Under the pieces are notes generated by a model. It saw nothing but the letters and a program-made list of their open reading frames with translations. It did no database searches and had not been told where the DNA came from. The translations under genes and the position numbers were made by a program. From a virus, in UHGV virus genome UHGV-0329186: a stretch of DNA of 23,864 bases; one strand, given 5' to 3'. How positions within the stretch are numbered: the first letter of the stretch is position 1; the number at the start of each line of letters is the position of its first letter. Positions 1,767 to 18,581 of this stretch are shown here, one piece after another.

Positions 1767-4324
1767 CGTCCACCTCCGGAGAACAGGCCACCATCACGCA
1801 TCTGTGTCTGAATTTCATCACGGGCACCCTTGCGGGCCATGTCATACACTGCCTTCATCATCTGTGGACCTGGCAGACCATTCGTACCGTCGTTCTGAAT
1901 CACCACGTGATTGTTCTGATTAAAATTAATGCCTTCAGCCCGCCGCATCTGCGCCGGACTTCCGGCACCGCCCACATAACCACCTTCCGCATAGCCGCGC
2001 ATCAGCCGGTACAGGTTGCCGACACCAATCCGGCTGGTTGCCTCCTTCGTGAAGACAAATTCACCACGGTGAACAATCCCCGCTGGCTCATATTTGCCGC
2101 CGGTTCCCGTAAATCCTCCGGTTGCAAAATGGAATTTCGCCGCAGCGGCCTGAATGGCTGTACCGCCTGACGCGGATGCGCCGCCACCAACAGCCCCGCC
2201 AATGGCGCTGCCGATACTCCCGACAATCCCCACCATTGCCTGCTTAAGCAGAATTTCTGTCATCATGGACAGCACGGAACGGGTGAAGCTGCGCCAGTTC
2301 TGCTCACTGCCGGTCAGCATCGCTGCCATATTCTGTGCAATACCATCAAAGGTCTGCGTGGCTGCACTTTTTACCTGCGACATACTGTCCGTGGCGCTCT
2401 CTTCCCACTCACTCCAGCCGGACTTCAGGCCTGCCATCCAGCTCCCGCGAAGCTGGTCTTCAGCCGCCCAGGTCTTTTTCTGCTCTGACATGACGTTATT
2501 CAGCGCCAGCGGATTATCGCCATACTGTTCCTTCAGGCGCTGTTCCGTGGCTTCCCGTTCTGCCTGCCGGTCAGTCAGCCCCCGGCTTTTCGCATCAATG
2601 GCGGCCCGTTTTGCCCGTTGCTGCTGTGCGAATTTATCCGCCTGCTGCGCCAGCGCGTTCAGGCGCTCCTGATACGTAACCTTGTCGCCAAGTGCAGCCA
2701 GCTGGCGTTTGTACTCCAGCGTCTCATCTTTATGCGCCAGCAGGGATTTCTCCTGTGCAGACAGCTGGCGACGTTGCGCCGCCTCCTCCAGTACCGCGAA
2801 CTGACTCTCCGCCTTCCACAAATCCCGGCGCTGCTGGCTGATTTTCTCATTTGCTCCGGCATGCTTCTCCAGCGTCCGGAGTTCTGCCTGAAGCGTCAGC
2901 AGGGCAGCATGAGCACTGTCTTCCTGACGATCGCCCGCAGACACCTTCACGCCGGACTGTTTCGGCTTTTTCAGCGTCGCTTCATAATCCTTTTTCGCCG
3001 CCGCCATCAGCGTGTTGTAATCCGCCTGCAGGATTTTCCCGTCTTTCAGTGCCTTGTTCAGTTCTTCCTGACGGGCGGTATATTTCTCCAGCGGCGTCTG
3101 CAGCCGTTCGTAAGCCTTCTGCGCCTCTTCGGTATATTTCAGCCGTGACGCTTCGGTATCGCTCTGCTGCTGCGCATTTTTGTCCTGTTGAGTCTGCTGC
3201 TCAGCCTTCTTTCGGGCGGCTTCAAGCGCAAGACGGGCCTTTTCACGATCATCCCAGTAACGCGCCCGCGCTTCATCGTTAACAAAATAATCATCCTTGC
3301 GCAGATTCCAGATGTCGTCTGCTTTCTTAAACGCAGCCTCTGCCTTAATCAGCATCTCCTGCGCGGTATCAGGACGACCAATATCCAGCACCGCATCCCA
3401 CATGGATTTGAATGCCCGCGCAGTCCTGTCTGCCCAGGTCTCCAGCGTGCCCATGTTCTCTTTCAGGCGGCGGGTCTGGTCATCAAACCCTTTCGTTGCG
3501 GCCTCGTTCGCCGCCTGCAATGCCCCGGCTTCATCGCCGGAACGCTGCAACTGAGCAACATACGCAATCTGCTCCGCCGTCACGTTATGGAACTGGCGCG
3601 CCATCGCCGTCAGCCCCGACGTCGGGTCAGTGGTCAGCTTCCCGAAGGCTTCAGCGACCTTGTCCACCTCCACACCGGATGCAGAGGAGAAACGCGCCAC
3701 ACTCTGGCTGATGGACGCAATCTGAGCCTCACCGCTTACCCCCGCCTTAACCAGTGCACTGAGTGACTCGCTGGTCTGGTTAAACGTCAGCCCTGCCGCC
3801 TGCCCGGCTCTGGACAGGACCAGCATACGATCTGCCGTCAGACCCGACTGATTACCGGAAAGGACCAGCGTTTTGTTGAAATCGGACAGGGTTGAGTTAC
3901 CCTGATACCAGGCATACGCCAGCGCACCGGTCGCCACCGCCAGCGAGGTGGCCCCGACCATCGGCAGGGTGATCGCACCGGCAAGCCCCCGGAACATGGG
4001 GATCATCCCGCCGAAGGAGTCCTTAACCTGACCACCCTGTTGCAGCAGGATCAGCCACGGGCTTTGCCCGCCTGCAAGCTGCGTGGCCACGTCGGTGAAC
4101 TGTGCAGGCAGCATACGCATGGCGGCTTTATACTGCCCGACGGAAATCCCCGCTTTCTGTGCAGCCAGCGCCTGTCGGCTCAGCGACTGTTCAACGACTG
4201 CCGCTGTTTTTTTCGCATCACTTTCCGTACCGGAAAAATGACGCCTGACTCTGGCCATCTGCTCGTCAAATCTGGCCGCATCCAGACTTAAATCAACGAC
4301 CAGATCGCCTACCGGTTCAGCCAT
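1763..4324 (-). CDS. H: Tail tape measure protein H
   Basis: 853 aa ORF, same length as lambda gpH; Ala/Gln/Glu-rich coiled-coil centre and Gly-rich C-terminus; sits between G/T and M. Confidence 0.92.
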   Translation of the reverse strand: MAEPVGDLVVDLSLDAARFDEQMARVRRHFSGTESDAKKTAAVVEQSLSRQALAAQKAGISVGQYKAAMRMLPAQFTDVATQLAGGQSPWLILLQQGGQVKDSFGGMIPMFRGLAGAITLPMVGATSLAVATGALAYAWYQGNSTLSDFNKTLVLSGNQSGLTADRMLVLSRAGQAAGLTFNQTSESLSALVKAGVSGEAQIASISQSVARFSSASGVEVDKVAEAFGKLTTDPTSGLTAMARQFHNVTAEQIAYVAQLQRSGDEAGALQAANEAATKGFDDQTRRLKENMGTLETWADRTARAFKSMWDAVLDIGRPDTAQEMLIKAEAAFKKADDIWNLRKDDYFVNDEARARYWDDREKARLALEAARKKAEQQTQQDKNAQQQSDTEASRLKYTEEAQKAYERLQTPLEKYTARQEELNKALKDGKILQADYNTLMAAAKKDYEATLKKPKQSGVKVSAGDRQEDSAHAALLTLQAELRTLEKHAGANEKISQQRRDLWKAESQFAVLEEAAQRRQLSAQEKSLLAHKDETLEYKRQLAALGDKVTYQERLNALAQQADKFAQQQRAKRAAIDAKSRGLTDRQAEREATEQRLKEQYGDNPLALNNVMSEQKKTWAAEDQLRGSWMAGLKSGWSEWEESATDSMSQVKSAATQTFDGIAQNMAAMLTGSEQNWRSFTRSVLSMMTEILLKQAMVGIVGSIGSAIGGAVGGGASASGGTAIQAAAAKFHFATGGFTGTGGKYEPAGIVHRGEFVFTKEATSRIGVGNLYRLMRGYAEGGYVGGAGSPAQMRRAEGINFNQNNHVVIQNDGTNGLPGPQMMKAVYDMARKGARDEIQTQMRDGGLFSGGGR

Positions 4325-15351: not shown

Positions 15352-15762
15352 ATGGCTCAGATTGCCATTTTTAAACAAATATTCGATAAAGTGCGAAATA
15401 ATTTAAACTATCACTGGTTTTATTCTGAACTAAAACGTCACAATGTCTCACATTACATTTACTATTTAGCCACAGAGAATATTCATCTTGTTCTTGAAAA
15501 CGATAATACGGTTTTAATAAAAGGACAGGGTAAGGTTGTAAATGTAAGATTTTCAAAAAATAAATGCCTTATAGAAGCCACCTTAAAAGGATTCAAATCA
15601 GGAGAGTTATCATTTTACGAATACAGGAAAAATCTTGCTACAGCAGGGGTTTTCAGATGGATTACAAATATCCACGAAAACAAAAGGTATTACTATACCT
15701 TTGATAATTCATTACTCTTTACTGAGAACATTCAGAACACTACACAAATATTTCCGCACTAA
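15352..15762 (+). CDS. YbcV/YdfO-like (DUF1398) protein, function unknown
   Basis: AT-rich ORF; start moved to the second ATG (15352), which has a GGAAGG Shine-Dalgarno 7 nt upstream and gives 136 aa ([17 protein letters not shown]...); sits in the Rz-to-cos moron position. Confidence 0.55.
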
Positions 15763-16069
15763 ATCATAACGTCCGGTTTCTTCCGTGCCAGAACCGGACT
15801 CGCTGGCATGATGAAATATGTGTACCCGGTAACCCCGGTGTGCATCGTTTTTGATTATTCCCCCACACTTGTGCAGAAGGAGTTCCCCGTCAGGCTACAG
15901 TCATAATTAATGCAAGAGTACAGCGACGATACAGCGCACAGAAATAAATCAGGTATCCATTGACTTCACAAAGACGGTACATAGCATCGACAGGAGTAAT
16001 TGCGTAAATTGAACTCTTGGCACACTTTAGCCACCGGCGAATCTTCAGCGGATTATCCTTGGCCGGTTT

Positions 16070-16534
16070 TTATCTGAGGCATTGCTCTCGAATGTATAGC
16101 TGTGCCCCTTCAAGTTGTTTTTGCATTATTATCAGTCGCGCTCTGAGGGTGAAATAATCCCGTTCAGCGGTGTCTGCCAGTCGGGGGGAGGCTGCATTAT
16201 CCACGCCGGAGGCGGTGGTGGCTTCACGCACTGACTGACAGACTGCTTTGATGTGCAACCGACGACGACCAGCGGCAACATCATCACGCAGAGCATCATT
16301 TTCAGCTTTCGCATCAGCTAACTCCTTCGTGTATTTTGCATCGAGCGCAGCAACATCACGCTGACGCATCTGCATGTCAGTAATTGCCGCGTTCGCCAGC
16401 TTCAGTTCTCTGACATTTTTGTCGCGCTGGGCTTTGTAGGTAATGGCGTTATCACGGTAATGATTCAGCCCCAGACTAAGCGCACCACAGGCCACCAGCA
16501 GGGCAATGATGACCACGCACAGTACGCGGTTCAT
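16070..16534 (-). CDS. Rz: Spanin inner-membrane subunit Rz (i-spanin)
   Basis: 154 aa; N-terminal TM segment, then ...[107 protein letters not shown]..., close to lambda Rz as I recall it. Confidence 0.9.
16132..16314 (-). CDS. Rz1: Spanin outer-membrane lipoprotein Rz1 (o-spanin), embedded in the +1 frame of Rz
   Basis: 60 aa, [20 protein letters not shown]... with lipobox LVVVGC and a proline-rich [15 protein letters not shown] segment; lies wholly inside Rz. Confidence 0.88.
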
Positions 16535-16535
16535 T

Positions 16536-16634
16536 TCACCACCAGCGTATCTGACCGATGAAATAACCAGAGGCCATAATCACAAACACCAGCCAGATAA
16601 GAATGAACTTCCAGGTGGATAATTTTTCAGCCAT
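16536..16634 (-). CDS. Candidate 32-aa single-TM peptide between endolysin and Rz (hypothetical)
   Basis: ATG at 16634 preceded by GGGAGA about 9 nt upstream; [32 protein letters not shown]; its TGA stop is 1 nt from the Rz ATG. Below the ORF-track length cutoff. Confidence 0.3.
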
Positions 16635-16709
16635 CACTCGAATCTCCCGAATCAGTTTGCTAAAATCAAACACACTTTCTCCTTTGACTTTTCCGGAGTC
16701 AGGAAACAC

Positions 16710-16742
16710 AAAACCCCGCTTGGTGCCAACAAACGGGGTTTT
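16710..16742. terminator. Hairpin flanked by A/T runs (bidirectional terminator-like) in the endolysin-Rz spacer
   Basis: aaaaCCCCG-(15 nt loop)-CGGGGtttt; a U-run follows the stem on both strands. Confidence 0.3.
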
Positions 16743-16832
16743 TACTTTTATTCACTTACGTTTCGCCACTTCGCAGGATTTCATGTTATCCGCCCGCGTG
16801 GCCATGCCTTATTTTTCAGCAAAATATTCTGC

Positions 16833-17366
16833 TTATCTGTCGATACCCCAGCACGCCAGCGCGCTCTCCTGGTCACGACGGGATACCTGACCGTAGCAGT
16901 TGTTTGAACGAATACGGCAGTCTCTGCCACCGTCCTTAATCCACCAGCGAATCGCCTCACACGCGCCCCTGCGATCACCTGCATTAATTCGTTTATAAAA
17001 CGTCGACGGGAAACACTTACCGGGACCAATGTTGTACGGACAGAATGACGCGATCCCCGCTTTCTGGGGTTCGCTCAATGGCACTTTGATGTTTTTCTCC
17101 ACCCATGCCAGCGCCTTATCACGCTCAATGGCGTTGACCTGGTCGCATTTTTCCTTCGACAGTTTCATACCGGGAAAAACGGGTTTTCCATCCACCATCG
17201 TGGCCCCCCGACAGATGGTCCAGTTGCCGGAACCATCGCGGTATGCCGTAGTGTGGTTACCCTCTTTTTCATCCAGAAACTGGTCAAGTATCTGAGGAGC
17301 TGATGCGCCTGCTCCAATCAGCGCCAGAACTGCAGCTGACAGGCCGTATTTGATTTTTGCGTTCAT
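16833..17366 (-). CDS. R: SAR-type endolysin (phage-21 R-like lysozyme)
   Basis: 177 aa; N-terminal Gly/Ala-rich weakly hydrophobic segment (YGLSAAVLALIGAGASAPQIL) typical of a signal-anchor-release domain, followed by E...D...T spacing (EGNHTTAYRDGSGNWTICRG) like T4/P21-type lysozymes. Confidence 0.8.
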   Translation of the reverse strand: MNAKIKYGLSAAVLALIGAGASAPQILDQFLDEKEGNHTTAYRDGSGNWTICRGATMVDGKPVFPGMKLSKEKCDQVNAIERDKALAWVEKNIKVPLSEPQKAGIASFCPYNIGPGKCFPSTFYKRINAGDRRGACEAIRWWIKDGGRDCRIRSNNCYGQVSRRDQESALACWGIDR

Positions 17367-17471
17367 GGATATTTATCAGGATTTATCGGTTTCTGAACCC
17401 TGGATATGTTTATCTGTCCCGGCCTGTTGAATCAGGCGGGGAAAAGGTAAAGACAATCAAGAGGATTATTT

Positions 17472-17744
17472 ATGGACAATAGCACCATTTCTCTACAGGA
17501 GTTGCTCGACTGCATTTCCAGGCTTCGGGATGATGTAAATGCCCTCACTGTTGCATTTTCACATCTGGCCTTATCAATTCCCAGGGAGCAAATGCTGCCA
17601 ACGCTGGCATCCATTCATTTTGAATCACGCAACCCCAAATGGTCCCAGGAACAACAAAATTCTTTCAAGTGGCTGGCGGCATTGCTGGAAGAAAATTATG
17701 CTGGCAAAACTACCATTTCGGCGGAGTCTTCAGGGAACCAGTAA
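17472..17744 (+). CDS. Hypothetical protein, antisense to the late operon inside the lysis cassette
   Basis: 90 aa ORF with AAGAGGA Shine-Dalgarno 6-7 nt upstream of the ATG; no homolog recognised by eye; its 3' end overlaps the 3' end of the convergent 17710-18054 ORF. Confidence 0.4.
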   Translation: MDNSTISLQELLDCISRLRDDVNALTVAFSHLALSIPREQMLPTLASIHFESRNPKWSQEQQNSFKWLAALLEENYAGKTTISAESSGNQ

Positions 17745-18054
17745 TCCTTCCCGGTAGCTTTCCTTTGTAGGTTATCCATACATTCTGCGCCTCTAAAATT
17801 ACGGGGCGCTTTTCCGGCGACTGCTCATCCCCTTCACATAACCCGGCAGCGACATCCAGGAAGACCTGTCTGATGCTCCTTCTGGCCGCTGCCTCATAAA
17901 ACTCCAGCGCAGCACCTTCAACACGGTCCAGCGAGATGTCCAGGTCAAAAATTTCACCGTCAAAGCGTTCTTTGTCCTGTAATGCTAAAGTTACCGTAAC
18001 TTTATTCTCAAAATTGCGGATCCCTTTCACAATCAGTTCATAGTTTTGAGTCAT
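17710..18054 (-). CDS. YdfR-like (DUF1327) protein of the kind found between holin and endolysin in E. coli lambdoid prophages
   Basis: 114 aa ORF immediately downstream of the holin; motifs VKGIRNFENKVTVTLALQDKERFDGEIFDLD...EGAALEFYEAAARRS resemble my recollection of Qin-prophage YdfR. Confidence 0.5.
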   Translation of the reverse strand: MTQNYELIVKGIRNFENKVTVTLALQDKERFDGEIFDLDISLDRVEGAALEFYEAAARRSIRQVFLDVAAGLCEGDEQSPEKRPVILEAQNVWITYKGKLPGRITGSLKTPPKW

Positions 18055-18058
18055 TGAA

Positions 18059-18274
18059 TTACTCTCCCCGTGCCGCCTTACGACGGTCCTCTCTGATTTT
18101 GAAATACAGGTTAGTCAGATATGTCAGCAGCCCAAACAGCAGACTCCCCAGCACGCCTATTGCCGCCCACTGAGACGGGGAAACCCTGTCCAGCAACTGC
18201 AGGAACCAGTAGCCCGTTCCCACCGCTGACGTGGTGTATGACACACCTGTTGTGATTTTTTCCATCTGGTCCAT
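18059..18274 (-). CDS. S: Class II holin, phage-21 S-type (pinholin) with dual start motif
   Basis: 71 aa from ATG 18274 ([26 protein letters not shown]...[36 protein letters not shown]); second in-frame ATG at 18265 (Met4); two TM segments and a basic C-terminus as in S21. Confidence 0.85.
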
Positions 18275-18581
18275 ACCCCGTCTCCCGTTATCCGGAAGCT
18301 GAAAACAATAAAAAAGCCACCAGTTAACTACTGATGGCTCTGATAACTCATGCAAGCGTCTCAGACGACCCACTGACACTACCGGTGAGTTTAACGATAC
18401 CTTCCATTTGACTGGCTCACTTTTTATGATGATGCCGGTGCATTTATCTCCAGCGCCAGACTTTCTATCTCAACGCCATACGTTACATTTTTGGTAATAT
18501 CCATCAGCGTCAGTGCATTTAGTCCCACTGCCAGACTGTCTTTTATGGCCTGGAATGCCGGGCCAGTACGATGACGTAGTA

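What the first reader, a model, noticed from the sequence alone, without database searches (positions are those of the whole stretch)
16535..16832. 300-bp spacer between endolysin and Rz holding a terminator-like hairpin and an orphan 32-aa TM ORF coupled to Rz
In lambda the R and Rz genes abut. Here they are separated by about 300 bp containing a 9-bp-stem hairpin with U-runs on both sides and a 32-codon ORF ([32 protein letters not shown]) that has a GGGAGA Shine-Dalgarno and a stop 1 nt before the Rz ATG. It could be a genuine small lysis-associated membrane protein, or a relic N-terminal fragment of a displaced i-spanin gene left by recombination between a P21-type lysis module and a lambda-type Rz/Rz1. 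Either way it marks a module junction.
Basis: partly seen in the sequence, partly recalled or inferred. Interest (0 to 1): 0.5.

Follow-up and report, generated by a model that had tools for sequence, protein, structure and literature searches.

The report
Small membrane-protein gene between endolysin and Rz
The 298-bp "spacer" between the prophage's cell-wall-cutting enzyme gene and its Rz gene is an add-on gene cassette, with a terminator-like RNA hairpin followed by a conserved 45-codon gene for a tiny membrane protein of unknown function that is read in tandem with Rz.

Summary
The 298-nt gap (16535-16832, genes on the minus strand), the hairpin and the small ORF ending 1 nt before the Rz ATG are all there.

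The ORF is a real gene, not a spanin relic.
- It is most likely 45 codons long, starting at GTG 16673 with an AAGGAG Shine-Dalgarno 5 nt upstream.
- It matches phrog_6632 (unknown function). PGAP annotates it as a hypothetical protein.
- dN/dS is 0.08-0.21 against copies from Salmonella phage SPN3UB and an unrelated myovirus-like contig.
- All convincing homologues among 1.84 billion representative proteins are 31-90 aa. None is an i-spanin.

The hairpin (13-bp stem, -18.9 kcal/mol, U-tracts on both sides) belongs to the small gene. The same type of hairpin, with compensatory changes, lies about 30-45 nt upstream of family members in every genomic context inspected: lysis cassettes with three endolysin types, tail gene clusters, and just upstream of terminase genes. 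These come from Enterobacterales, Burkholderiaceae and metagenomic phage contigs.

Close relatives (Perceval, PhiR55_1) have R overlapping Rz with no cassette, so it is accessory. In other E. coli phages the same slot holds three other small membrane-protein families.

The function is untested. My best inference is a terminator-gated, late-expressed inner-membrane microprotein that modulates lysis.

The parts
16833..17366 (-). Endolysin gene (177 aa, rrrQ/H-19B R type, with a hydrophobic N-terminus of the SAR kind). It forms the upstream border of the spacer.
   Evidence: PF00959 E 4e-24; phrog_7 endolysin; 87% DNA identity to Qin rrrQ, ending 10 nt past the stop codon.
16752..16832 (-). Leader of about 80 nt that travels with this endolysin type. 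No conserved ORF. It contains an 18-nt block, CCACGCGGGCGGATAACA (16784-16801), conserved as far as Salmonella phage SPN3UB.
   Evidence: Shared at 83-89% with VT2-Sakai/933W-type phages, where ant follows instead. Present in SPN3UB. Absent where the cassette follows other endolysin types.
16700..16756 (-). Intrinsic-terminator-like hairpin (stem 16710-16742, 13 bp) with an upstream A-tract and a downstream U-tract (UUUUGUGUUU). It is the 5' element of the small-gene cassette.
   Evidence: -18.9 kcal/mol. The same type of hairpin lies upstream of family members in all contexts inspected. 4 of 13 pairs show compensatory changes on both sides in 11 sequences.
16674..16699 (-). Short 5' UTR with a small stem (TGACT/AGTCA) and the Shine-Dalgarno AAGGAG (16679-16684), 5 nt before the GTG start.
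   Evidence: Read from the sequence. A strong Shine-Dalgarno 5 nt before GTG/TTG, and upstream of the ATG starts of more distant members, is kept although the sequence differs: GGGAGG-5-TTG in 783R2 and GGGAG-5-GTG in SPN3UB, L210 and Yersinia.
16536..16673 (-). Small gene 'A' of 45 codons plus TGA: M(V)[44 protein letters not shown]. Predicted as a cytoplasmic amphipathic helix (residues 4-17), a kink, then a membrane helix (20-44).
   Evidence: phrog_6632 E 1.4e-29 over residues 13-57 of the 57-aa frame. PGAP annotates it as WP_000459345.1. dN/dS 0.08-0.21. AF2 pLDDT 84. 95 of 95 copies are intact in the IMG/VR hairpin loci. The internal ATG with an SD-like motif is kept in 11 of 11 genes.
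16070..16534 (-). Rz (i-spanin). Its ATG lies 1 nt after the stop of gene A, and the last codons of A (TGG TGG) supply an SD-like GGTGGT. It is a chimera: the membrane-segment codons (16475-16534) are H-19B-like and the body (16175-16474) is lambda-like.
   Evidence: PF03245 E 1e-52; identity profiles; breakpoints.
16132..16314 (-). Rz1 (o-spanin lipoprotein), embedded in Rz.
   Evidence: PF06085 E 5e-20.

Best explanation
The 298 bp are an accessory gene cassette inserted between R and Rz of a pinholin / SAR-type-endolysin lysis operon. It has three parts.
(1) A leader of about 80 nt that belongs to the endolysin module.
(2) A GC-rich hairpin with U-tracts, built like an intrinsic terminator. 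It is the conserved 5' element of the small gene.
(3) A 45-codon gene (GTG 16673, strong Shine-Dalgarno) for a single-pass inner-membrane microprotein of family phrog_6632. It has a short amphipathic N-terminal helix predicted to face the cytoplasm, one membrane helix and three residues (RWW) outside.

The gene ends 1 nt before the Rz ATG, and its last codons form the Rz ribosome-binding site, so Rz translation is coupled to it.

Shown:
- the anatomy;
- purifying selection on the protein;
- the width of the family;
- the constant hairpin-gene association with covariation;
- that the cassette is accessory, since close relatives lack it;
- that it is not derived from a spanin.

Inferred:
- The hairpin stops ordinary transcription, so the gene (and here also Rz/Rz1) is made only from Q-antiterminated late transcripts that read through it. 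After processing, the hairpin may also stabilise the flanking mRNAs.
- The protein acts in the inner membrane late in infection. In this location it most likely tunes lysis (timing of membrane depolarisation, endolysin release or spanin action) rather than being required for it.
For: Real gene:
- dN/dS is 0.12 (window vs SPN3UB), 0.21 (vs L210) and 0.08 (SPN3UB vs L210), with dS 0.8-2.2. Second codon positions change least.
- The start codon with a Shine-Dalgarno 5 nt upstream is kept with different sequences.
- It matches phrog_6632 full length.
- Of 35 profile hits, 34 are 31-90 aa.
- 48 relatives occur in Citrobacter, Enterobacter, Salmonella, Yersinia, Klebsiella, Providencia, Burkholderiaceae and Mycetohabitans.
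- 95 of 95 copies are intact.
- AF2 predicts helix-kink-helix with pLDDT 84.

Hairpin is part of the unit:
- The same AAA[A/G]CCCCG...CGGGG[T/C]UUU hairpin plus U-tract lies upstream of the gene after three different endolysin types, after tail genes, and before terminase genes.
- It shows compensatory changes.

Accessory cassette:
- Perceval and PhiR55_1 have the same holin-YdfR-lysozyme genes, with R overlapping Rz by 4 nt.
- The closest Rz relatives that follow lambda-type or DLP12-type R also abut it.
- Among 120 IMG/VR loci with the hairpin, the slot holds family A, D, C+D, C+B or A'+B+C'+D, sometimes with ant or a methyltransferase-like gene.

Coupling:
- Stop, 1-3 nt, then ATG is kept with different downstream genes: Rz, a lipoprotein gene, and a 211-aa gene.

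Late-operon positions:
- All contexts that can be classified lie in phage late regions.
- No sigma-70-like promoter was found between the hairpin and the start.
Against: - There are no expression data. No Ribo-seq, proteomic or Hfq-CRAC signal was found for this site.
- Termination at the hairpin and read-through by Q are inferred only from its shape.
- The lysis-tuning role is weak. Distant family members sit in tail or packaging regions, away from lysis genes, which argues for a function not tied to endolysin or spanin.
- Relatives without the cassette are phage isolates.
- A few database copies are frameshifted.
Confidence: 0.6

Rival explanations
1. The same real gene, but its function has nothing to do with lysis. 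It would be a mobile 'moron'-type membrane protein, for example superinfection exclusion or another effect on the host envelope, that can land anywhere in a late operon. Its place between R and Rz would be incidental.
For: - Family members lie after a tape-measure gene (L234), after tail-tip genes (L230), after the tail M-L-K genes (L226) and before terminase genes among toxin-antitoxin modules (L220, L221, L231).
- The R-Rz slot also accepts ant and a methyltransferase-like gene.
- From my own knowledge: small inner-membrane morons such as HK97 gp15 give superinfection exclusion.
Against: - No promoter was found for expression in lysogens, and a terminator-like hairpin sits directly upstream.
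- Four of the contexts inspected place it immediately after an endolysin gene and coupled to Rz or a lipoprotein gene.
- No PADLOC match.
Confidence: 0.3
2. Relic N-terminal fragment of a displaced i-spanin (P21/Qin-type Rz), left by recombination.
For: There is a weak resemblance of the membrane segment to the RzpQ N-terminus (SGFIVGNVW vs [10 protein letters not shown]). The Smith-Waterman score is 38, z 2.9, reached by 1.9% of shuffles.
Against: - That score is not significant after testing four spanins.
- No spanin PHROG hit at E <= 1.
- Apart from one 1109-aa protein that matches in 7 stretches, no protein longer than 90 aa appears in the profile search of 1.84 billion representatives.
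- The family has its own start, its own ribosome-binding site and a conserved N-terminal helix. It also occurs with no spanin nearby.
- Purifying selection acts on it.
- DNA homology to Qin stops 10 nt after the R stop.
Confidence: 0.03
3. Type I toxin-antitoxin-like unit. The small hydrophobic peptide would be a toxin, and the two-way hairpin would terminate an antisense RNA that starts inside or after the ORF and covers its ribosome-binding site.
For: - The peptide is small and hydrophobic.
- The hairpin has a conserved U-tract on the opposite strand too.
- There is a promoter-like site on the plus strand at 16551-16580 (9 of 12 matches) and one downstream of the Burkholderiaceae copy.
Against: - No antisense promoter-like site was found in SPN3UB, C. 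braakii or L210.
- The window's candidate site lies in codons 32-41, whose DNA is not conserved.
- The gene is embedded in an operon and coupled to the next gene.
Confidence: 0.05
4. The peptide itself is irrelevant. The ORF would serve only as an upstream reading frame that delivers ribosomes to Rz after the hairpin, or the conservation would be at the RNA level.
For: - The stop lies 1 nt before the Rz ATG.
- The WW codons form GGTGGT, which serves as the Rz ribosome-binding site.
Against: - dN/dS is 0.08-0.21 with near-saturated synonymous change.
- There are invariant residues in the N-terminal helix.
- Family members with other C-termini have no coupled downstream gene (L226, L224, 783R2).
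Confidence: 0.05

Closest known systems
Lambdoid lysis cassettes: lambda S-R-Rz/Rz1 and the phage 21 / Qin type (pinholin, SAR endolysin)
   Same: The gene order is holin (PF04971, P21 holin S family), lysozyme (PF00959), Rz (PF03245) and Rz1 (PF06085). It is a late operon.
   Different: In lambda, DLP12, Qin, Perceval and PhiR55_1 the R gene overlaps or abuts Rz. Here a hairpin and an extra 45-codon gene lie between them. A YdfR/DUF1327 gene also lies between the holin and R.
Phage 'morons' (extra genes between neighbours that are adjacent in related phages; HK97 gp15 is an example of a small membrane moron, cited from my own knowledge)
   Same: It is extra DNA present in some relatives and absent in others at the same junction. 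It is a small membrane protein and moves between unrelated phage contexts.
   Different: Classical morons carry their own promoter upstream and a terminator downstream, and are expressed in lysogens. Here no promoter was found, the terminator-like hairpin is upstream, and the 3' end is translationally coupled to the next gene.
Holin/antiholin dual-start pairs (lambda S107/S105, phage 21 S71/S68; from my own knowledge and the H-19B annotation)
   Same: It is a small membrane protein in a lysis cassette. Two in-frame starts, each with an SD-like motif, are conserved.
   Different: It has one membrane helix and no charged C-terminal tail. The two possible products differ by 13 residues rather than 2-3. 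There is no match to any holin family. Use of both starts is untested.
Accessory lysis regulators such as the phage Mu releasin gp25 (PMC9239132)
   Same: It is a small membrane protein encoded in a lysis region that contains a SAR-type endolysin and spanins. It is accessory to the core enzymes.
   Different: There is no sequence relation. Family A also follows endolysins that are not of the rrrQ SAR type, and it occurs outside lysis cassettes.
Terminators read through by lambda-type Q antitermination (tR' downstream of PR')
   Same: The hairpin has a GC-rich stem plus a U-tract inside a late operon. In the Burkholderiaceae prophage it follows a near-consensus promoter and a first terminator-like hairpin, as in a PR'-tR' arrangement.
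   Different: It lies within the operon, directly upstream of one small gene. It travels with that gene rather than with the promoter or Q module.

Membership tests
phrog_6632 (PHROG family of unknown function, 45-residue profile) | Full-length HMM match | tested here: met
   E 1.4e-29, residues 13-57 of the 57-aa frame match profile positions 1-45 of 45.
i-spanin (Rz, PF03245 and the spanin PHROGs) | N-terminal membrane helix followed by a periplasmic coiled-coil domain of roughly 100 residues | tested here: not met
   Only 3 residues follow the membrane helix. All convincing homologues are 31-90 aa.
i-spanin (Rz, PF03245 and the spanin PHROGs) | Sequence similarity to a spanin family or spanin N-terminus | tested here: not met
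   No spanin PHROG hit at E <= 1. No Pfam hit. Smith-Waterman comparison with 4 spanin N-termini is not significant.
Holin / pinholin | One or more membrane helices plus a charged, hydrophilic C-terminal tail | tested here: not met
   There is one helix, but the protein ends in RWW with no tail.
Holin / pinholin | Match to a holin family model | tested here: not met
   No holin PHROG or Pfam hit. The cassette's own holin is the separate 71-aa PF04971 gene.
Holin / pinholin | Dual-start motif giving holin and antiholin | tested here: inconclusive
   The internal ATG with an SD-like motif is kept in 11 of 11 genes. This could equally be a constraint at the protein level.
Holin / pinholin | Lethal, timed membrane permeabilisation | not testable with these tools
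   Needs expression experiments.
Moron (in the sense of Hendrix and colleagues) | Extra DNA between genes that are adjacent in related phages | tested here: met
   R overlaps Rz in Perceval and PhiR55_1, which have the same upstream genes.
Moron (in the sense of Hendrix and colleagues) | Own sigma-70 promoter upstream and terminator downstream | tested here: not met
   No promoter-like site lies between the hairpin and the start in the window, SPN3UB, C. braakii or L210. The terminator-like hairpin is upstream, and the gene is coupled to the next gene.
Intrinsic (factor-independent) terminator | GC-rich stem-loop directly followed by a U-tract | tested here: met
   13-bp stem, -18.9 kcal/mol, followed by UUUUGUGUUU.
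Intrinsic (factor-independent) terminator | Structure conserved by compensatory change | tested here: met
   4 of 13 pairs have changes on both sides in 11 sequences. 96.7% of cells are paired, against 37-64% when the partners are slid.
Intrinsic (factor-independent) terminator | Terminates transcription in vivo | not testable with these tools
   Needs 3'-end mapping with and without Q.
Type I toxin-antitoxin | Small hydrophobic toxin peptide | tested here: met
   45 aa with one membrane helix. Toxicity is untested.
Type I toxin-antitoxin | Antisense or divergent small RNA with its own promoter | tested here: not met
   No antisense promoter-like site in 3 of 4 Enterobacterales copies. The window's candidate is not conserved. 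No Rfam match.

The most novel reading that the evidence does not exclude
The hairpin, mini-UTR, small membrane ORF and ...RWW stop form a self-contained, mobile late-operon cassette. An upstream terminator keeps it silent unless RNA polymerase is antiterminated. Its last codons supply the ribosome-binding site for whatever gene it lands in front of, so insertion does not cut off downstream translation. It makes two isoforms (45 aa and 32 aa) from conserved dual starts, which act as an effector/inhibitor pair on the inner membrane to set the time of lysis. In Stx phages this would also set the time of toxin release. The other small families in the same slot (phrog_4906, phrog_1115, phrog_4493) would be interchangeable payloads on the same leader.
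Probability: 0.2. Interest if true: 0.7.

Novelty: new member of a known kind. Interest (0 to 1): 0.45.

Why it matters
Lysis timing decides burst size. In Stx phages it also decides when Shiga toxin is released. This cassette sits in the lysis operon of H-19B-type Stx1/Stx2 phages and of prophages in common ExPEC lineages (UTI89, S88, APEC O1).

The standard holin-endolysin-spanin model has no place for a conserved 45-aa membrane protein that is translationally coupled to Rz, or for the three other small membrane-protein families that share the slot. If they tune lysis, they are unrecognised regulators.

The constant pairing of a terminator-like hairpin with a promoterless small gene, across Enterobacterales and Burkholderiaceae, is also a simple and testable design for how phages add potentially harmful small genes to late operons.

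If the gene proves to have no phenotype, the finding is just one more hypothetical phage microprotein.

Tried and rejected
- Rfam on 15500-18500, both strands, E <= 1: only a chance-level rimP-leader hit (24.7 bits against a gathering score of 47), on the antisense strand.
- Literature: no paper contains the peptide or WP_000459345. A survey of Stx-phage lysis cassettes does not mention genes between R and Rz. The Sakai small-gene Ribo-seq supplements do not contain the peptide.
- Hfq-CRAC sRNA table for Sakai: no peak at an R-Rz interval. EcOnc10/11/12 lie downstream of Rz on the other strand. Sakai Sp10 and Sp15 carry the ant + family B arrangement, not this one. The anti-sRNAs AgvB and AsxR lie 3' of PR', not here.
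- Phage 21 itself (M65239) is not in the collections, so the P21 R-Rz junction could not be read. What I say about R21 rests on my own knowledge and on the H-19B annotation.
- Pfam, NCBIfam and PADLOC: no family for A or for families B, C and D.
- The genome-contig scan found only 2 loci. The first of the two peptide patterns assumes an ATG start, which may have missed the copies with GTG starts. The protein searches showed a much wider distribution.
- Antisense 95-aa ORF (16603-16890, plus strand): rejected, because the 297/298-nt length difference in the A-run breaks it in H-19B.
- 17-aa ORF in the leader: its ATG is not conserved.
- Antisense promoter / type I toxin-antitoxin idea: rejected for lack of conserved promoters.
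- Idea that gene A is tied to SAR endolysins: rejected, because it follows a GH19+PG_binding endolysin and a phrog_873-type endolysin as well.
- Idea that the IRWW tail is only a by-product of the Rz ribosome-binding site: weakened, because Burkholderiaceae and metagenomic members with other downstream genes also end in RWW or KWW.
Full report
1. What is in the window

The lysis genes run on the minus strand.
- A 71-aa holin of the phage 21 S family (PF04971) is at 18059-18274.
- A YdfR/DUF1327 gene is at 17710-18054.
- A 177-aa lysozyme (PF00959) is at 16833-17366.
- Rz (PF03245) is at 16070-16534, with Rz1 (PF06085) embedded at 16132-16314.
- Between the lysozyme stop and the Rz ATG lie 298 nt (16535-16832).

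The window is 100% identical over this region to prophages of UTI89, S88, APEC O1, IHE3034 and ATCC 11775. It is about 94-95% identical to phage H-19B and many Stx1/Stx2 phages. The H-19B record shows the same 297-nt unannotated gap.

The hairpin is 16742-16710 in the gene sense. The free energy is -18.9 kcal/mol (z -3.15). It is followed by UUUUGUGUUU and preceded by an A-run. It is the only terminator-like site in 15800-17600. It is also the only site in the window matching CCCCG-N8-22-CGGGGYTTT, where 0.01 matches are expected.

The 32-codon ORF, its GGGAGA motif and the TGA-A-ATG junction with Rz are as described.

The frame is open back to 16709. PHROG family phrog_6632, a 45-residue profile of unknown function, matches residues 13-57 at E 1.4e-29. 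PGAP annotates exactly this 45-aa protein (WP_000459345.1) in some RefSeq genomes. The start is GTG 16673, with AAGGAG 5 nt upstream.

Copies in very different settings keep the same layout with different nucleotides.
- Salmonella phage SPN3UB: GGGAG, 5 nt, GTG, 45 codons, then TAA-C-ATG of Rz.
- A Citrobacter braakii prophage: the same protein, following a different endolysin type.
- A myovirus- or tailocin-like contig, L210: it follows a GH19+PG_binding endolysin, and its stop is followed by AT-ATG of a lipoprotein gene.
- Phage 783R2: TTG start with GGGAGG 5 nt upstream. The copy is not adjacent to Rz and has a different C-terminal half.

Selection is clear. dN/dS is 0.12 (window vs SPN3UB), 0.21 (window vs L210) and 0.08 (SPN3UB vs L210), with dS 0.8-2.2. 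Differences by codon position are 14/4/20, 9/4/16 and 15/4/18. All 95 copies in the IMG/VR loci that carry the hairpin are intact. A few frameshifted copies exist in the protein database.

AlphaFold2 on a 9-sequence alignment gives pLDDT 84, with helix 4-17, a break at 18-19 and helix 20-44. This means a short amphipathic helix, then one membrane helix, then RWW. By the positive-inside rule I infer N-in, C-out.

More distant members start with ATG at the equivalent position. This supports the long form as the main product.

Two isoforms are therefore possible but unproven.

4. It is not a spanin relic

- No spanin PHROG matches at E <= 1.
- A profile search of 1.84 billion representative proteins gives 35 hits. 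All are 31-90 aa except one 1109-aa protein that matches in 7 stretches. None is an Rz-length protein.
- Smith-Waterman scores against the N-termini of the window's Rz, lambda Rz, SPN3UB Rz and Qin RzpQ are within or near the shuffled range. The best is RzpQ, at z 2.9 and reached by 1.9% of shuffles, among four tests.
- DNA homology to Qin stops 10 nt after the lysozyme stop.

5. The spacer is mosaic, and the cassette is accessory

Pairwise comparisons place the breakpoints.
- Homology to Qin ends at about 16823.
- VT2-Sakai/933W-type phages share R and the leader down to about 16738. They then carry ant and another small gene, and homology resumes at 16537.
- The Citrobacter prophage shares 16751-16155, which is the hairpin, gene A and Rz.
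- L210 shares only 16718-16531.
- Lambda and DLP12 share only 16471-16079 at 94%.

The 60-nt identity profile shows that the window's Rz is a chimera. The membrane-segment codons are 100% H-19B-like and 43% lambda-like. The next 300 nt are 98-100% lambda-like.

Phages Perceval and PhiR55_1 have the same holin, YdfR and lysozyme genes, but R overlaps a lambda-type Rz by 4 nt. The closest Rz relatives that follow lambda-type or DLP12-type R also abut it. The cassette is therefore not needed for a working lysis operon of this type.

Among 120 IMG/VR loci that carry the hairpin, the distance from the hairpin to the Rz ATG falls into classes.
- 171-180 nt: family A alone, as here.
- 210-211 nt: family D, phrog_4493. 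It also ends IRWW, 1 nt before Rz.
- 313 nt: C+D.
- 354-375 nt: C+B.
- 517 nt: A'+B+C'+D.
- About 1300 nt: C+B plus a methyltransferase-like gene.

The family assignments (phrog_4906, phrog_1115, phrog_4493, all of unknown function) are.

6. The hairpin belongs to the small gene

This was the unexpected result. A second protein search widened the family to Citrobacter, E. fergusonii, Enterobacter, Salmonella, Yersinia, Klebsiella, Providencia, Burkholderiaceae and Mycetohabitans.

Contexts of distant members are not lysis cassettes.
- After a tape-measure gene (L234).
- After tail-tip genes (L230).
- After the tail M-L-K genes (L226).
- Directly upstream of DUF5681 and terminase genes, among toxin-antitoxin modules (L220, L221, L231).
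- In two metagenomic phage contexts (L222/L232 and L224).

In every one of them, about 30-45 nt upstream of the start, there is a hairpin of the same build: an A-rich run, AAA[A/G]CCCCG, an upper stem that differs in sequence but stays paired, CGGGG[T/C]UUU, and a U-rich tail.

On an 11-sequence alignment RNAalifold recovers the stem. 4 of 13 pairs show changes on both sides, for example A-U, G-C and C-G at the fourth pair. On a 7-sequence set, 96.7% of cells pair, against 37-64% when the partners are slid by 1-3 columns.

The same hairpin and the following UTR (CUGUUUCUGCACCUUGA..AAGGCAAGGGAGAAC) also precede family C and D genes in PhiR12_1 and GER2. The leader therefore behaves as a platform with exchangeable small membrane ORFs.

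In the Burkholderiaceae prophage the hairpin follows a near-consensus promoter (TTTACA-17-TATCAT) and a first terminator-like hairpin. The whole leader, about 400 nt long, is duplicated in front of a second small gene. This resembles a PR'-tR' arrangement.

7. How it most likely works

Shown: the anatomy, the coding constraint, the association with the hairpin, the coupling to the next gene, and that the cassette is accessory.

Inferred:
- No promoter-like site lies between the hairpin and the start in four copies, and all classifiable contexts are phage late regions. The gene is therefore probably expressed only when antiterminated late transcription reads through the hairpin. This keeps the gene, and here also Rz/Rz1, silent otherwise.
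- After processing, the hairpin could also protect the flanking mRNAs.
- The last codons of A (TGG TGG) give GGTGGT 5-6 nt before the next ATG, so the cassette brings a ribosome-binding site for the downstream gene.

The protein's target is unknown. Its position here, after the endolysin and coupled to Rz, and its frequent placement after endolysins favour a role in tuning lysis. The tail and packaging contexts favour a function that does not depend on lysis partners. I put the lysis-tuning reading at roughly 0.35-0.4 and a non-lysis moron function at about 0.3.

8. Rivals rejected or weakened

- Type I toxin-antitoxin. The plus-strand promoter-like site at 16551-16580 lies in non-conserved codons, and SPN3UB, C. 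braakii and L210 have no antisense promoter-like site.
- A pure coupling ORF or an RNA-level element. This is contradicted by the dN/dS values and by members with no coupled downstream gene.
- A known RNA family. None was found in Rfam.
- A known sRNA. None of the Hfq-CRAC peaks in Sakai lies in an R-Rz interval, and Sakai carries the ant-type arrangement anyway.

9. Comparison with what is known, and novelty

The ORF is already in the databases as a hypothetical protein (PGAP, PHROGs). I found no functional study.

It fails the defining features of i-spanins and of holins. It fits the 'extra DNA' criterion of a moron but not the promoter-gene-terminator layout.

I file it as a new, uncharacterised member of the broad kind 'accessory small membrane proteins of phage late/lysis operons'. 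As far as I could find, the conserved upstream terminator-type hairpin and the exchangeable payloads have not been described before.

Interest is moderate. The cassette is conserved, easy to test, and sits in the lysis operon of Stx phages and common ExPEC prophages. It has no demonstrated function, and close relatives do without it.

Noticed in passing
window 16784-16801 (minus strand): An 18-nt block, CCACGCGGGCGGATAACA, in the leader after R. It is identical in Salmonella phage SPN3UB and nearly so in H-19B, GER2, 783R2 and VT2-Sakai. GCGGATAACA equals a lac operator half-site. It could be a protein- or RNA-level signal, or chance.
   Followed up: no
window 16070-16534: Rz is a chimera. The membrane-segment codons (16475-16534) are 100% identical to H-19B and 43% to lambda. 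The next 300 nt (16175-16474) are 98-100% identical to lambda and 68-90% to H-19B.
   Followed up: yes
window 17472-17744 (plus strand): A 90-aa ORF antisense to the lysis operon, in the gap between the YdfR-family gene and R. The corresponding opposite-strand ORF is annotated by PGAP as a hypothetical protein (WP_001351274.1), and a similarly placed one in PhiR12_1 is annotated as DUF1823-containing.
   Followed up: no
L009:2221-2334, L007:2157-2485, L008:2032-2282, L006:~3350-3484 (between ant and Rz): Three other small single-pass membrane-protein families occupy the same R-Rz slot in other E. coli phages: phrog_4493, phrog_1115 and phrog_4906, all of unknown function. In VT2-Sakai and Sakai Sp10/Sp15, phrog_4906 sits between ant and Rz. 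phrog_4493 also ends IRWW, 1 nt before the Rz ATG.
   Followed up: partly
L214:1611-1727 (Salmonella phage SPN3UB): An extra unannotated membrane ORF (38 aa from TTG, 36 aa from ATG) that overlaps the endolysin stop codon. It gives a weak hit to phrog_14810 (E 3e-4).
   Followed up: no
L210:90-4142: Here the hairpin and gene A sit in a cluster with this order: tail-fibre assembly gene, GH19+PG_binding endolysin, the cassette, two small lipoprotein genes (58 and 67 aa, no PHROG match), tail sheath and tail tube. This is a myovirus- or tailocin-like layout with no recognisable i-spanin.
   Followed up: partly
L220:2590-2990 and 3296-3700 (Burkholderiaceae prophage): A leader of about 400 nt, containing a near-consensus promoter, a first terminator-like hairpin and then the family-A-type hairpin, is duplicated. 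Copy 1 precedes the family-A gene and copy 2 precedes a 58-aa gene. Both lie among ParE/RelB/HicB-type modules upstream of terminase genes.
   Followed up: partly
Sakai NC_002695.2 about 1946819-1946867 (L228), from Tree et al. 2014 Table S2: The Hfq-CRAC peaks EcOnc10/11/12 lie 75-120 nt downstream of Rz, on the strand opposite to the late genes. This is probably the 3' end of the convergent small gene (ECs_1967 in Sp10). The equivalent place in the window would be about 15770-16060.
   Followed up: partly
L001:2084-2618 (E. coli ATCC 11775): In this otherwise identical prophage, PGAP marks the lysozyme gene as frameshifted. In the window it is intact at 177 codons.
   Followed up: no
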